From the IMG/VR virus record IMGVR_UViG_3300001598_001658, positions 81,492 to 145,491 of that record: DNA of 64,000 nt. One strand, given 5' to 3'. Origin of the DNA: a virus. Its lineage: Duplodnaviria; Caudoviricetes. The notes beneath the pieces are model-generated. The model searched no databases. It saw only the letters and a program-made list of their open reading frames with translations, and was not told the origin of the DNA. The translations under genes were made by a program, and so were the position numbers. Positions 39,703 to 42,539 of the stretch are shown here, piece by piece. Position 1 is the stretch's first letter, and the number at the start of each line of letters is the position of its first letter.

Positions 39703-40464
39703 ATGGAGAGCGCTATGGTTACGATGAATTTATTATTATTTCATCTAAAAGATGAATTGGGTGAGCCAATTTATAATACACAGAAACCAAGCTTCTACGA
39801 AGATATCTTAAATAAAAAAACTTTATTATTCTGGAGTACATATTTTCCAAAGATTGTAAAAGGAATTGAAATCAAACAAGAAGATGCTATTCCTTTAAAG
39901 AATCCTCAAACTGGAACTATGTGTACTTCTGGAATGTATAAAGTACCTAAATTTAATCCTAATGACGAATATATAAATTTTGAACAGGTTTTTTATCCTG
40001 GAAATTTAAATATGAATCAAGCTAGTAGTAATCTACCAGCTTTAAATGGTTTGTTAGGTCAAGTATCCGATTATCTACCAAATTCACAATATTATGGAGT
40101 TGATAGATACAGTTTTTCTTTTATGGCTCCTGATATTTTAACAATCGATCCTATACCGATGAAACATTTAAATTTCACAGTAAATATGCAAAGACTTGTT
40201 AGATTAACAGAAGTTCCTACATATTATTTCGAACCTTTTAAAAATCTCTTTTTAGCTGATTGTAAAATTTCTTTATATAATAAATATAAACACATCTCTG
40301 AAGGTGGTACTACTACTTATCAGGGTGTTGAAATTACAACAGAACTTCTTTCTAGTCTTAAAGAAGGAAAAGACGAACGAAAGGAATCGATAGAATTATT
40401 TGAAAAGAATTACTGGAAAGATGCTAGTAGATTTGGTTCATTTCTTAATTATGATGCACCTTAA
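39703..40464 (+). CDS. Putative neck/head-completion structural protein
   Basis: 253 aa coupled to the protease gene (start may be 39715); C-terminal helical pattern resembles gp13-like neck proteins. Confidence 0.45.
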   Translation: MESAMVTMNLLLFHLKDELGEPIYNTQKPSFYEDILNKKTLLFWSTYFPKIVKGIEIKQEDAIPLKNPQTGTMCTSGMYKVPKFNPNDEYINFEQVFYPGNLNMNQASSNLPALNGLLGQVSDYLPNSQYYGVDRYSFSFMAPDILTIDPIPMKHLNFTVNMQRLVRLTEVPTYYFEPFKNLFLADCKISLYNKYKHISEGGTTTYQGVEITTELLSSLKEGKDERKESIELFEKNYWKDASRFGSFLNYDAP

Positions 40465-40477
40465 AAATAAAAAAAAG

Positions 40478-40505
40478 AAACTCCGGAGATATTCTCCGGA
40501 GTTTC
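40478..40505. terminator. Bidirectional terminator ending the neck gene (+) and the RNA operon (-)
   Basis: GAAACTCCGGAGA-tat-TCTCCGGAGTTTC, with a long T-tract on the minus strand. Confidence 0.85.
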
Positions 40506-40509
40506 AAAT

Positions 40510-41355
40510 TTGTCTAGTTCTCGTATAGACACTGATCAATCAGAAATGCAGGCTGTCGAGGAATCTACCTATATGGTAGCCCTTGCAGAAGTTCCGACTT
40601 ACAATCCAAAACCAGACGCATTCCTCCTCTTCATTTTCTTATTCGCGATCGAGCCTCACCGCGCTCATAGGAATGCTGATTATTTATTTCTACTCCCTCA
40701 AGTATTCTATTTTCATAGCTTACTTAATATCTCTGTAGAAACTAACTGAATTCTACTTTCAAATGGATGGACTACGTTCCACTTTACTATTTCGAAGATT
40801 CTCAACGCATGCGAATTCTGCTACATACGTACATTATCAGCTGTCGCTGAATCTTATAAGGAATAATATAAACATTTGGGTCACTAATTTACTCGCCTCG
40901 TATAATTAACTCAGATTCATTGCTAATCATATAAAGTTTTCTAAAAGCCTTCTTCTGTTCCCATATTTGTCATTAAAATTAGATAAAGATAAAAATCGAT
41001 ATAAATATCAACGTTCATCTCTAGTCCGTCTAATTAATACTTGTCCGACATCAACAGAAGTATCGATGTCCTTAATCATAAAGTGCTTACCCAATGGCAT
41101 CACATTCCTTATGATAAGACTATTTGACGACAATAGCGCTGTTTCGAGCATGGTGCACTCCACCACAATCCATTCGAGTTGAAACAATTTAAAAATCATC
41201 TCTTTTAACACATCTCGTGATCTCGTTGTTTTCAGAGAATTGCTCGTTTCTCTATTACACCTTTTTACCACTTGATTCTTATGAACAGTCCAACGAACAT
41301 AAGCAGGACAACTATTGTGTGTAATACAAATCCCATCTAGCAGTGCCAGATGATT
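40510..41355 (-). ncRNA. Large structured ncRNA (GOLLD/ROOL-like class or new; may be two RNAs)
   Basis: About 850 nt with no RBS-led ORF and higher GC than the flanks; dense hairpins with several crossing pairings; runs from tRNA-Gln to the terminator. Confidence 0.65.
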
Positions 41356-41357
41356 AG

Positions 41358-41428
41358 CTCGGCCAGCAGGATTTGAACCCGCGAATTCGGCACCAAAAGC
41401 CGATGGCATACCGCTTACCGACAGCCGA
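41358..41428 (-). tRNA. tRNA-Gln(UUG)
   Basis: TCGGCTG/TGGCCGA acceptor; anticodon arm TCGGC-TTTTGGT-GCCGA; T arm GCGGG-TTCAAAT-CCTGC; no encoded CCA. Confidence 0.9.
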
Positions 41429-41441
41429 AAAAATAAAAAGC

Positions 41442-41540
41442 GAAGAGATAGCCGTTAAAAGAAGTCTACATCGTTTATTGCCTCCAAGAGCGTAACTACT
41501 CCTGTGTTTAATAACTATCTCTTCTAGCAGCAACGCTGCC
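41442..41540 (-). ncRNA. Spacer RNA D: end-paired structured RNA
   Basis: GAAGAGATAGTT...GGCTATCTCTTC 12-bp closing stem (G-U pairs favour the minus strand), preceded by a GGCAGC-GTT-GCTGCT hairpin and followed by a U-tract. Confidence 0.55.
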
Positions 41541-41543
41541 TAT

Positions 41544-41667
41544 CGGCCACTGTACGAATTGAACGCACACTTTTATATGCAAACAGGGCTTAAAGATTAC
41601 AACAGATACAGTAGAAGTATCTCTCTTAGTTTGCACATAATGTAGCTACCATTACTACCAAAAGGCC
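41544..41667 (-). ncRNA. tRNA-like RNA with a giant extended anticodon arm (124 nt)
   Basis: Acceptor GGCCTTT/AGTGGCC; D arm GTAG-TAATGGTAG-CTAC; T arm GTGCG-TTCAATT-CGTAC; anticodon arm is a 12-bp stem enclosing a 44-nt insert. Confidence 0.75.
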
Positions 41668-41679
41668 AAAAATAAAATA

Positions 41680-41752
41680 TGAATCGGATAACCGGAAAAT
41701 CAAAACCAAATTTATATAGGAGTCTAAATGACAAAGTTAGCTATCCGATTCA
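41680..41752 (-). ncRNA. Spacer RNA C: end-paired RNA with a large loop
   Basis: TGAATCGGATAGC...GTTATCCGATTCA 13-bp closing stem, followed by a U-rich tail. Confidence 0.55.
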
Positions 41753-41756
41753 AATA

Positions 41757-41829
41757 TGGGCCACCTAGGATTTGAACCTAGGACCAAAGGATTATGAGTC
41801 CCCTGCTCTAACCACTGAGCTAGTGGCCC
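41757..41829 (-). tRNA. tRNA with CAU anticodon, Ile2-type
   Basis: GGGCCAC-TA-GCTC-AGTGGTTA-GAGC-A-GGGGA-CTCATAA-TCCTT-TGGTC-CTAGG-TTCAAAT-CCTAG-GTGGCCC-A; resembles bacterial Ile2 more than Met tRNAs. Confidence 0.9.
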
Positions 41830-41834
41830 AAGAA

Positions 41835-41959
41835 ATGACAGCCTTGACATATTGTCTTCATCTGTCTGTAACCCCCGGAAAAGCGACACGATCGCATATA
41901 CATCGAATGCATATTGGTTATTCCTAGTTCTTGTATACATCCACGTGCAATCATGTCAT
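41835..41959 (-). ncRNA. Spacer RNA B: multibranched RNA
   Basis: ATGACA...TGTCAT closing stem; internal hairpins ATATGCAT-TCG-ATGTATAT and GCGAT-CGT-GTCGC. Confidence 0.5.
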
Positions 41960-42011
41960 ATACTACTATGCTCCAAATTCTTTTGAAGAGATTTATGTTG
42001 CATCGCATAGA

Positions 42012-42098
42012 TGCCGAGAACCAGACTTGAACTGGCACGCTGTTTGCACAGCAAGGGATTTTAAGTCCCTGGTGTCTACCAAATTCCACCATCTCGGC
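42012..42098 (-). tRNA. tRNA-Leu(UAA)
   Basis: GCCGAGA acceptor; AGGGA-CTTAAAA-TCCCT anticodon arm; long variable arm GCTGT-GCAA-ACAGC; T arm TTCAAGT. Confidence 0.95.
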
Positions 42099-42117
42099 TC
42101 AATTTTATTTTTTAAAT

Positions 42118-42159
42118 AAAAGGACAAGGAACACAGGAGGTTATGCGTATTCCTTGCCC
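42118..42159 (-). terminator. Terminator/attenuator hairpin between the HU-like gene and the RNA operon
   Basis: GGGCAAGGAA...TTCCTTGTCC-TTTT; the loop region contains ACCTCCT. Confidence 0.6.
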
Positions 42160-42191
42160 AAAGGAGTATTTAATGGAATGTTAGAAGATCA

Positions 42192-42539
42192 TTATTTGAT
42201 TTCTTTTCTTTCACATTTAAAACCAGTATTGGCGATTGCGACGAATTCCTGACGTGGTGTCATATGAACACCAATTGATGCAGATACTTCGTATTTGCGG
42301 CCCTTTTCATCTGTTTCTGTGTGAGCACCGAGATGCTTAAGTACAGTTGCACAGTGTGGATTTTTGATAACCAGTACATCATTTTCTTTAAGGTTTGGGG
42401 CTTCTTCTTTTGCAATGTCATCAGTGACTTTATTGAGCGCATTCAATACTTCCTGAGATGTGCTCTTAGGAATACCACAGTCTTTTTCAATTCTTTCATT
42501 AACCGAAGTCCAGTTAATTGTCTTTACATTTTCAGCCAT
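42192..42539 (-). CDS. HU/IHF-like histone-like DNA-binding protein
   Basis: Two N-terminal helices ('ERIEKDCGIPKSTSQEVLNAL'), a beta-arm and C-terminal 'HMTPRQEFVAIAN'; AGGAGG RBS. Confidence 0.65.
   Translation of the reverse strand: MAENVKTINWTSVNERIEKDCGIPKSTSQEVLNALNKVTDDIAKEEAPNLKENDVLVIKNPHCATVLKHLGAHTETDEKGRKYEVSASIGVHMTPRQEFVAIANTGFKCERKEIK

What the first reader, a model, noticed from the sequence alone, without database searches (positions are those of the whole stretch)
40478..42160. tRNA-punctuated operon of unexplained structured RNAs (candidate new phage RNA system)
Seen: reading the minus strand after the HU-like gene gives tRNA-Leu, a hairpin plus RNA B, tRNA-Ile2, RNA C, a giant-arm tRNA-like RNA, RNA D, tRNA-Gln, an ~850-nt structured RNA, then a terminator. 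Every inter-tRNA spacer is an end-paired fold followed by a U-rich tract, and G-U pairs in C and D favour the tRNA strand. Known: RNase P and RNase Z cut at tRNA ends. Inference: the tRNAs act as punctuation that releases a set of stable phage ncRNAs, some of which pair with partners elsewhere (see separate findings).
Basis: partly seen in the sequence, partly recalled or inferred. Interest (0 to 1): 0.9.

Follow-up and report, generated by a model that had tools for sequence, protein, structure and literature searches.

The report
Jumbo-phage tRNA operon with novel RNAs
An uncultured giant phage carries three tRNA genes interleaved with a conserved ~850-base folded RNA, two small folded RNAs and a tRNA look-alike that match no catalogued RNA family; related phages keep the same pieces in shuffled order with compensating base-pair changes, so they are probably real RNAs, most likely cut free by the host's tRNA-trimming enzymes.

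Summary
Mostly real, and not in Rfam. On the minus strand, between a conserved 115-aa gene and a strong terminator, lie tRNA-Leu(TAA), tRNA(CAT) and tRNA-Gln(TTG). Between and after them are four non-coding modules. I found relatives of this uncultured jumbo phage in metagenome assemblies. Five further loci (four independent lineages) carry the same modules at the same genomic spot.

- **Large RNA (685-876 nt):** it directly follows tRNA-Gln, or a Gln-like tRNA, in 6 of 6 loci. In four loci a tRNA or tRNA-like element follows it immediately. In its 3' domain, 18 of 30 predicted pairs show compensatory changes, against 3-5 in slid controls.
- **tRNA-like RNA:** the acceptor and T stems covary, the D arm is invariant, and a hypervariable long arm replaces the anticodon arm.
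- **RNA D and RNA C:** both are conserved, with long closing helices that covary.
- **Spacer "B":** neither conserved nor unusually folded.
- **Other first-reader claims:** the "HU-like" label and the claimed pairing with a distant RNA are unsupported.

Rfam 15 matches only the tRNAs; GOLLD and ROOL models do not hit.

Best reading: a polycistronic RNA operon processed at its tRNAs and tRNA-like elements. It releases a new GOLLD/ROOL-like large phage RNA plus small RNAs of unknown function. Expression and processing were not tested.

The parts
42122..42159 (-). Terminator-like hairpin after the conserved 115-aa gene (42539..42192). It marks the upstream edge of the RNA cluster.
   Evidence: Fold z -5.9 with a following U-rich run. 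Relatives carry a hairpin at the same place (sequence prints).
42012..42098 (-). tRNA-Leu (anticodon TAA), with no encoded CCA end.
   Evidence: ARAGORN; Rfam tRNA 51.6 bits. The 3' flank was read.
41831..42011 (-). Spacer 'B': lineage-specific and not supported as a structured RNA.
   Evidence: Fold z -0.8. No similarity above shuffles to the post-Leu spacers of five relatives.
41756..41830 (-). tRNA with anticodon CAT (Met by ARAGORN; possibly Ile2), with no encoded CCA end.
   Evidence: 71.3 bits. Similar phage tRNAs are annotated as either Met or Ile.
41680..41752 (-). RNA C. A 14-bp closing helix encloses a conserved core with an invariant ACUCCU at 41723..41718. A U-rich tract follows at 41668..41679.
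   Evidence: Fold z -4.3. The core is shared with L049, L029 and L045 (local scores 47, 36 and 26 against a null of about 16 +/- 2.5). The hexamer is invariant in 6 of 6 sequences. Every homolog has an 11-21 bp closing helix with a different sequence.
41544..41667 (-). tRNA-like RNA. It has acceptor, D and T arms, and a 12-bp arm plus a 44-nt insert in place of the anticodon stem-loop.
   Evidence: Fold. Homologs occur in L030, L031 and L045. 97.4% of cells are paired, and 11 of 19 pairs show compensatory changes against 1-2 in slid controls. There is no Rfam tRNA hit in the window.
41442..41541 (-). RNA D. A 5' hairpin and a 12-bp closing helix surround a conserved core. A U-rich tract follows at 41429..41441.
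   Evidence: Fold z -3.8. Homologs occur in L029, L030 and L045 (nhmmer E 1e-11 to 1e-32). Of 30-31 predicted pairs, 6-7 are compensatory.
41357..41428 (-). tRNA-Gln (anticodon TTG), with no encoded CCA end. It always lies directly upstream of the large RNA.
   Evidence: 50 bits. Adjacency to the large RNA holds in 6 of 6 loci.
40506..41356 (-). Large structured non-coding RNA (about 850 nt here; 685-876 nt in relatives). It has a GGAUU motif at 41333..41329 and a 3' domain at 40686..40509. The 3' domain ends in a hairpin whose 9-nt loop (40525..40517) is invariant.
   Evidence: nhmmer to L031 and L030, E 9e-37 and 1e-35. Alignments. 3' domain: 30 pairs, 18 compensatory, 93.7% paired, 0 of 500 shuffles as good. 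5' domain: 47 pairs, 11 compensatory. There is no coding signature and no Rfam hit.
40477..40505 (-). Intrinsic terminator that closes the RNA cluster.
   Evidence: A 13-bp stem with 7 G-C pairs, a 3-nt loop and a T8 tail on the minus strand.

Best explanation
This is an accessory RNA-only operon of an uncultured jumbo phage. The phage's S80 prohead protease is distantly related to that of PBS1/AR9-type Bacillus phages.

**Proposed mechanism**
- One minus-strand transcript runs from downstream of the 115-aa gene to the terminator at 40477-40505.
- It carries three decoding tRNAs for A-ending codons, one tRNA-like element, two small structured RNAs (C and D) and one large ornate RNA.
- None of the tRNAs encodes a CCA end. 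Their maturation therefore needs an endonucleolytic cut after the discriminator base (RNase Z type) and a cut at the 5' end (RNase P).
- Those same cuts would automatically release the RNAs lying between the tRNAs.
- The tRNA-like element keeps only the parts these enzymes recognise: the acceptor, T and D arms. It probably serves as pure punctuation.

**Status of each step**
- Shown: the large RNA is a new family, with the size, elaborate fold and tRNA-island context of the phage RNAs GOLLD and ROOL.
- Shown: the anatomy of the cluster, conservation of the modules, covariation, and absence from Rfam.
- Inferred: co-transcription, the cleavage sites, and stability of the released pieces.
- Unknown: the biochemical function of the large RNA and of C and D. 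My guess is action on the host translation apparatus during infection.
For: **Same modules at the same spot**
- Five further loci (four independent lineages) carry them between the 249-aa virion protein gene and the 115-aa gene.
- Gln-to-large-RNA adjacency holds in 6 of 6 loci.
- The last hairpin of the large RNA ends next to tRNA-CAT in L030 and L031. It runs into the tRNA-like element in L045. It ends 10 nt before an odd tRNA in L049.

**Covariation**
- Large RNA 3' domain: 93.7% of cells paired. 18 of 30 pairs are compensatory, against 9.6 +/- 1.9 in shuffles and 3-5 in slid controls.
- Large RNA 5' domain: 11 of 47 pairs compensatory.
- tRNA-like RNA: 11 of 19 pairs compensatory.
- RNA D: 6-7 of 30 pairs compensatory.
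- RNA C: a conserved core inside 11-21 bp closing helices of unrelated sequence.

**Non-coding**
- No ORF is conserved. Only 26% of indels are multiples of three, and substitutions show no three-base periodicity.

**Strand**
- Every module folds better on the tRNA strand.

**Ends**
- No CCA is encoded after any tRNA (read).

**Precedents**
- GOLLD and ROOL lie in phages near tRNA islands (PMC5737381; bioRxiv 10.1101/2024.12.08.627333).
- T4 makes RNAC and RNAD, of unknown function (PMC9697503).
Against: - Promoter, co-transcription, cleavage and accumulation are therefore untested.
- The family is small: six loci and about five effective sequences, all from metagenomes.
- The thermodynamic signal is uneven. 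The L030 copy of the large RNA folds only slightly better than shuffles (z -1.2).
- The mid domain gave only one invariant helix by RNAalifold.
- Close relatives lack the cluster at this site (L005, L006, L008, L012, L015). The 186-kb relative has no match to the 3'-domain model anywhere in its assembly. The cluster is therefore dispensable.
- Each closing helix followed by a U tract also looks like a terminator. If these are efficient, they would argue against a single transcript.
- Spacer B is not a conserved RNA.
Confidence: 0.7

Rival explanations
1. The folded spacers are only cis-acting signals for tRNA expression. They could be RNase III or RNase P processing hairpins, or leaky terminators that set the dosage of each tRNA. 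On this view there are no trans-acting products.
For: - Closing helices of 11-21 uninterrupted pairs are good double-strand RNase substrates.
- In the window, C and D are each followed by a U-rich run directly before the next tRNA.
- Module order is flexible.
Against: - The most conserved part of RNA C is its internal core, not the helix.
- RNA D keeps a conserved multi-helix core.
- A 685-876 nt RNA with many covarying helices is far more than a processing signal needs.
- Modules stay intact while their neighbouring tRNA changes.
Confidence: 0.15
2. The large RNA is a highly divergent GOLLD or ROOL RNA rather than a new family.
For: - It shares their size range, phage origin and tRNA-island context.
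- It has a better conserved 3' part and a variable 5' part, as described for GOLLD (bioRxiv 10.1101/2024.12.08.627333).
- Some contigs carry sample names that suggest gut or rumen sources.
Against: - Rfam 15 covariance models give no hit, even at E up to 10 on the 2-kb region with relaxed filters.
- The scan of four other lineages at E up to 1 also gave no hit.
Confidence: 0.08
3. The region is non-functional debris in a recombination hotspot. It would consist of decayed tRNA genes and hitchhiking DNA shuffled by homing endonucleases.
For: - The site is hypervariable among relatives: empty, tRNA-Leu only, or tRNA-Arg plus two ORFs.
- An HNH homing endonuclease sits at the end of the array in L030.
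- The tRNA-like element and the tRNA minihelices look like decayed tRNAs.
- Spacer B is unconserved.
Against: - Compensatory changes maintain helices in four different modules across lineages.
- The D arm of the tRNA-like element is invariant, as are several loops of the large RNA.
Confidence: 0.05
4. Part of the region encodes small proteins, possibly under a changed genetic code. The CUA-containing loop of the tRNA-like RNA would then hint at amber suppression.
For: - A 133-aa ORF lies at 41008..41409.
Against: - That ORF overlaps tRNA-Gln and is absent from the homologs, whose longest open runs are 52-89 codons.
- Table 4 and TAG=Q open no convincing frame.
- The window's long genes are intact under table 11.
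- The CUA loop is not conserved: L030, L031 and L045 have unrelated inserts.
Confidence: 0.02

Closest known systems
[quoted passage not shown]
   Same: It is a large (often over 800 nt) elaborately folded non-coding RNA of phages and prophages. It is often found in or beside tRNA arrays, has a better conserved 3' part, and has no known function (bioRxiv 10.1101/2024.12.08.627333; PMC5737381).
   Different: The Rfam model does not match any of the lineages scanned. Here the RNA is strictly coupled to an upstream tRNA-Gln and occurs only in one clade of uncultured jumbo phages. Oligomeric cage formation is unknown.
ROOL RNA (Rumen-Originating, Ornate, Large)
   Same: It is a large ornate RNA (mean 581 nt) found in phages and prophages near tRNAs (PMC5737381).
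   Different: There is no match to the Rfam model. The RNA here is longer (685-876 nt) and has different conserved motifs.
Phage T4 tRNA cluster with stable RNAs RNAC and RNAD
   Same: T4 makes small stable RNAs of unknown function (PMC9697503). From my own knowledge of the T4 genome, they are encoded in its tRNA gene region, which also holds a homing endonuclease gene. That is the same operon logic as here.
   Different: The T4 RNAs are small, and no large RNA is present. No sequence or model comparison could be made here.
tRNA punctuation and tRNA-like 't-elements' (animal mitochondrial transcripts; plant mitochondrial t-elements; MALAT1 mascRNA)
   Same: tRNAs or tRNA-like folds recruit RNase P and RNase Z to define the ends of neighbouring RNAs (PMC1920247 for t-elements; the other examples are from general knowledge).
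   Different: Those systems release mRNAs or one nuclear lncRNA. Here the released products would be a set of phage non-coding RNAs, and the cleavage itself is not shown.

Membership tests
GOLLD (Rfam) | Match to the Rfam covariance model. | tested here: not met
   No hit at the gathering score on the whole window. No hit at E up to 10 on 40300-42300 or at E up to 1 on L029, L030, L045 and L049.
GOLLD / ROOL as a kind | A large, multi-helix, non-coding RNA of phages located in a tRNA island. | tested here: met
   The RNA is 685-876 nt. It has 30 and 47 predicted pairs in the 3' and 5' domains, with 18 and 11 compensatory. It is non-coding and flanked by tRNAs in a jumbo-phage contig.
GOLLD / ROOL as a kind | Self-assembly into a multimeric RNA cage. 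| not testable with these tools
   This needs in vitro transcription and cryo-EM or native gels.
ROOL (Rfam) | Match to the Rfam covariance model. | tested here: not met
   Searches report only tRNAs and chance-level hits.
tRNA (RF00005), for the tRNA-like RNA | A cloverleaf with a canonical anticodon stem and a 7-nt loop that scores above the gathering threshold. | tested here: not met
   The window copy gives no tRNA hit at E up to 10 and is not called by ARAGORN, even with introns allowed. The L045 copy reaches 37.3 bits only by skipping the anticodon arm as a 23-nt local insertion. The inserts are unrelated between lineages.
tRNA-like punctuation element | Conserved acceptor stem, T arm and D arm (the RNase P and RNase Z recognition surface), with the rest free to vary. 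| tested here: met
   The acceptor and T stems covary (4 of 5 pairs each). The D arm is invariant and the anticodon arm is hypervariable.
tRNA-like punctuation element | Actual cleavage by RNase P and RNase Z at its ends. | not testable with these tools
Intrinsic terminator (3' end of the cluster) | A G+C-rich hairpin followed by a T run on the transcribed strand. | tested here: met
   A 13-bp stem with 7 G-C pairs and a T8 tail at 40505..40477.
HU/IHF family (upstream 115-aa protein) | Sequence match to the Pfam HU domain or to solved HU/IHF structures. | tested here: not met
   No Pfam family at E up to 0.01. A profile of nine homologs finds no PDB chain at E up to 1. A fold-level test was not done.

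The most novel reading that the evidence does not exclude
The large RNA is a third, independent class of phage 'ornate' RNA that, like GOLLD and ROOL, assembles into a multimeric particle. It would be made as a fixed unit with tRNA-Gln and cut out by tRNA-processing enzymes. RNAs C and D and the tRNA-like element would be co-factors of one RNA-based host-takeover module acting on ribosomes or tRNA metabolism. Several modules expose Shine-Dalgarno-like or anti-Shine-Dalgarno-like runs, for example the invariant ACUCCU in RNA C and the invariant GGAG at 40627..40624 in the large RNA.
Probability: 0.2. Interest if true: 0.9.

Novelty: new variant of a known kind. Interest (0 to 1): 0.72.

Why it matters
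- **A possible third family.** GOLLD and ROOL were recently shown to form RNA-only cages. Their function is still unknown, and their link to tRNA islands is unexplained. A third, unrelated large RNA in the same context, obligatorily coupled to one tRNA and bracketed by tRNA-like punctuation, would argue that the tRNA link reflects biogenesis. That would be release by RNase P and RNase Z, and it gives a directly testable model.
- **New RNA families.** The locus adds at least three more RNA families to the catalogue: C, D and a tRNA-like RNA without an anticodon arm.
- **Operon evolution.** It shows that jumbo phages shuffle such modules as cassettes.

Tried and rejected
**Searches that found nothing new**
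- Rfam at relaxed thresholds on the window and on four relatives gave only tRNAs.
- blastn of the region, and of two other lineages' large RNA, against GenBank phages gave tRNA hits only or no match.
- Single-protein searches of IMG/VR with the flanking genes found no relatives. The alignment-based scan of IMG/VR also found none.
- A motif scan of IMG/VR gave nine chance hits, none homologous.
- The GTDB genome scan found only the already known MAG contig.

**Covariance models**
- Model R1 (3' domain) was run over 151 genomes of the MAG's order and 151 of its phylum. It gave one weak hit (26.6 bits) inside a 687-aa ORF on the other strand, which I judge false.
- Model R2 for RNA C was built from the L029, L030 and L031 subgroup. 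It did not retrieve the W, L045 or L049 copies, so it gives no formal pair statistics for RNA C.

**Other analyses**
- A naive scan of the full-length alignment for gapless covarying helices found none, because the alignment register is imperfect.
- RNAalifold on the mid domain found only one invariant helix.
- Alternative genetic codes open no convincing frame.
- The 3'-domain model R1 finds only this one copy in the genome, and the region's own sequence has no other match in the genome beyond a tRNA.
- The available half of the genome has no CCA-adding enzyme, RtcB or RNA-ligase genes.
- RNA C pairing with the '6S-like' region is not exceptional.
Full report
**What is in the window**

The window is the second half of a 145,491-bp IMG/VR virus record estimated to be 51% complete. 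It is AT-rich (about 30% G+C). It encodes an S80-family prohead protease. The nearest cultured relative of that protease is a 251-kb Bacillus jumbo phage, at 26% identity.

The region 40465-42191 lies between two genes:
- a 253-aa virion protein gene on the plus strand, ending at 40464;
- a 115-aa gene on the minus strand, at 42539..42192.

No credible ORF lies between them.

On the minus strand, ARAGORN and Rfam agree on three tRNAs: Leu-TAA, CAT and Gln-TTG. Nothing else in the 64 kb reaches an Rfam gathering score. Even at E up to 10 on the 2-kb region, only chance-level hits appear. None of the three tRNAs is followed by CCA (sequence).

**Checking the folds**

| Element | Coordinates | Fold result |
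|---|---|---|
| Hairpin after the 115-aa gene | 42122-42159 | z -5.9 |
| RNA C | about 41752..41680 | z -4.3 |
| tRNA-like RNA | 41667..41544 | z -3.9 |
| RNA D | 41541..41442 | z -3.8 |
| Tail after tRNA-Gln (879 nt folded) | 41356..40478 | z -5.5 |
| Spacer B | 42011..41831 | z -0.8 |

- Each element except spacer B folds less well on the plus strand.
- A 13-bp hairpin with a T8 tail closes the unit at 40505..40477.
- Spacer B folds no better than shuffles.
- The upstream protein has no Pfam or PDB-profile match, so 'HU-like' remains a guess.

**Finding relatives**

Nucleotide and single-protein searches of phage collections found nothing. The protease and the 249-aa virion protein do have relatives in metagenome assemblies, at 50-89% identity.

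Fetching their contigs showed that gene order is conserved: protease, 249-aa gene, then, on the other strand, the 115-aa gene and a roughly 80-aa gene, then an SbcC-like gene. The gap holding the RNA cluster is hypervariable:

| Locus or loci | Content of the gap |
|---|---|
| L005, L006, L008, L012, L015 | 45-66 bp |
| L003, L004 | tRNA-Leu plus 310 nt |
| L007, L047 | tRNA-Arg plus two ORFs |
| L029, L030, L031, L045, L049-L052 | full tRNA/RNA clusters |

The cluster is therefore an accessory cassette in a hotspot. L030 even carries an HNH homing endonuclease at its end.

**The large RNA**

*Homology*
- nhmmer aligns window 41439-40604 to L031 and L030 at E 9e-37 and 1e-35. It aligns the first 400 nt to L029.
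- A profile also finds L045/L046 and L049-L052.
- Full alignments show one family of 685-876 nt.

*Boundaries*
- The RNA starts with a GGAUU motif 3-25 nt after the tRNA in the Gln position.
- It ends with a hairpin whose 9-nt loop is invariant (window 40525..40517).
- In L030 and L031 that hairpin abuts tRNA-CAT. In L045 it runs straight into the tRNA-like element. In L049 it stops 10 nt before an odd tRNA.
- In the window it is followed by the terminator, and in L029 by 280 further bases.

*Structure*
- 3' domain: RNAalifold predicts 30 pairs, 18 with compensatory changes.
- In that domain 93.7% of cells pair, against 74.4 +/- 2.3% in shuffles. There are 18 compensatory pairs, against 3-5 when partners are slid by 1-3 columns. 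No shuffle out of 500 does as well.
- 5' domain, present in the long forms: 47 pairs, 11 compensatory, from only three effective sequences.
- The mid domain could not be resolved. By eye it contains hairpins with covarying stems and invariant loops, which suggests pseudoknots.

*Non-coding*
- Open runs are not conserved. Only 33 of 127 indels are multiples of three, and substitutions show no three-base periodicity.

*Caveats and distribution*
- The L030 copy has an unremarkable folding energy (z -1.2). The case rests on covariation, not thermodynamics.
- A covariance model of the 3' domain finds only these loci (92-164 bits) and one copy in the genome.
- That model finds nothing credible in about 300 bacterial genomes of the MAG's order and phylum.
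- GenBank phages have no match.

**The small modules**

*tRNA-like RNA*
- It has homologs in L030 (129 nt), L031 (88 nt) and L045 (83 nt).
- The D arm is invariant. The acceptor and T stems covary: 11 of 19 pairs are compensatory and 97.4% of cells pair, against 1-2 compensatory pairs in slid controls.
- The anticodon arm is replaced by a long helix with unrelated inserts of 13-70 nt.
- The Rfam tRNA model accepts the L045 copy only by jumping over this arm. It rejects the window copy.

*RNA D*
- It occurs in the window, L029, L030 and L045.
- It has a covarying 5' hairpin and closing helix around a conserved core.

*RNA C*
- It shares a core with L049, L029 and L045 that is significant against shuffles, including an invariant ACUCCU.
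- Every copy is closed by an 11-21 bp helix of a different sequence.
- In the relatives RNA C precedes tRNA-Leu. In the window it follows tRNA-CAT.

*Module order*

| Locus | Order on the transcribed strand |
|---|---|
| Window | Leu - B - CAT - C - tRNA-like - D - Gln - large RNA |
| L029 | C - Leu - B' - CAT - D - Gln - large RNA |
| L030 | C - Leu - B' - tRNA-like - D - E - Gln - large RNA - CAT |
| L045 | C - Leu - D - E - Gln - large RNA - tRNA-like |
| L049 | C - Gln-like - large RNA - odd tRNA |

Spacer B of the window has no counterpart in any relative.

**How it most likely works**

- The tRNAs must be matured, and no CCA is encoded. The host therefore has to cut after each discriminator base (RNase Z type) and at each 5' end (RNase P). 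This follows from established knowledge of bacterial tRNA processing.
- Those cuts would free the intervening RNAs with defined ends.
- The elements that have lost decoding capacity retain exactly the acceptor/T/D surface that these enzymes read. These are the tRNA-like RNA and, in relatives, the acceptor-plus-T-arm minihelices seen by eye.
- In L045 the tRNA-like element occupies the slot held by a real tRNA in L030, L031 and L049. This fits a punctuation role.
- Function is unknown. The large RNA resembles GOLLD and ROOL in size, ornateness, phage origin and tRNA-island context (PMC5737381; bioRxiv 10.1101/2024.12.08.627333), but it fails their Rfam models.
- T4 offers an older precedent for small RNAs of unknown function made by a phage (PMC9697503).

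**Limits**

- There are only about five independent sequences.
- The structure is incomplete in the middle of the large RNA.
- The promoter is unidentified.
- The claimed pairing of RNA C with a distant '6S-like' region is a genuine 11+8 nt complement. Its duplex energy ranks 386th of 2422 genome windows, and the complementary stretch of RNA C is not conserved in relatives.

**Verdict**

The locus holds several RNA families that Rfam 15 does not know. I rate it a new variant of a known kind: a phage tRNA-island RNA of the GOLLD/ROOL type, combined with tRNA punctuation.

Noticed in passing
L049:1799-1875 and about L049:2590-2655 (same in L050-L052): Both tRNAs flanking the large RNA in this lineage are odd. 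ARAGORN calls one with an 8-nt anticodon loop (ttaa). The tRNA in the Gln position has a loop reading like a TTA anticodon and is not called at all. They may be suppressor or quadruplet-type tRNAs, or decayed punctuation elements.
   Followed up: no
L030:5106-5690 (minus strand): A 194-aa HNH homing endonuclease (NUMOD4 plus HNH_3) sits directly after the RNA array. This is consistent with cassette shuffling at this hotspot.
   Followed up: partly
window 40465-42191 and the syntenic gaps of L003-L017 and L047: The site between the 249-aa virion protein gene and the 115-aa gene is a hypervariable hotspot. In different relatives it is empty, holds tRNA-Leu only, holds tRNA-Arg plus two unknown ORFs, or holds the full RNA array.
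   Followed up: yes
L029:8274-8440, L030:7341-7566 and L031:8025-8251 (minus strand): The post-Leu spacer in these lineages (B') carries a hairpin with a covarying stem and a conserved C-rich 12-nt loop. It is absent from the window. L029 against L030 scores 39 versus a null of 18.4 +/- 2.5.
   Followed up: partly
L030:6889-7112 and L045:7725-7947 (minus strand): A further conserved module 'E' of about 220 nt lies between RNA D and tRNA-Gln (nhmmer E 1.5e-17). It is absent from the window.
   Followed up: no
L030:7783-7905, L031:8467-8587, about L045:8340-8380 and about L049:3000-3040 (minus strand): Just after the hairpin of the 115-aa gene there is a tRNA 'minihelix' (acceptor stem plus T arm only). 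I saw it by eye in the sequence prints. It may be a minimal RNase P substrate that defines the 5' end of RNA C.
   Followed up: no
window 41308-41343 and 41495-41530: A 36-nt direct repeat (75% identity) lies at the same offset (14-49 nt) downstream of tRNA-Gln and of the tRNA-like element. It hints that a tRNA-plus-trailer unit was duplicated.
   Followed up: no
window 41008-41409 (minus strand): A 133-aa ATG ORF overlaps tRNA-Gln and the start of the large RNA. It has no family hit and is not conserved in homologs. It is a likely false gene call.
   Followed up: yes
G000:33920-34877 and G000:59451-60582 (outside the window; loci L055, L056): Two more ORF-free, G+C-richer gaps occur in the same genome. 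One holds tRNA-Asn and tRNA-Lys. Neither has an Rfam match beyond the tRNAs or sequence similarity to this locus.
   Followed up: partly
window 42192-42539 (minus strand) and homologs: The 115-aa protein is conserved next to the hotspot in all relatives (34-54% identity). It has no Pfam or PDB sequence match, so its function is unknown.
   Followed up: partly
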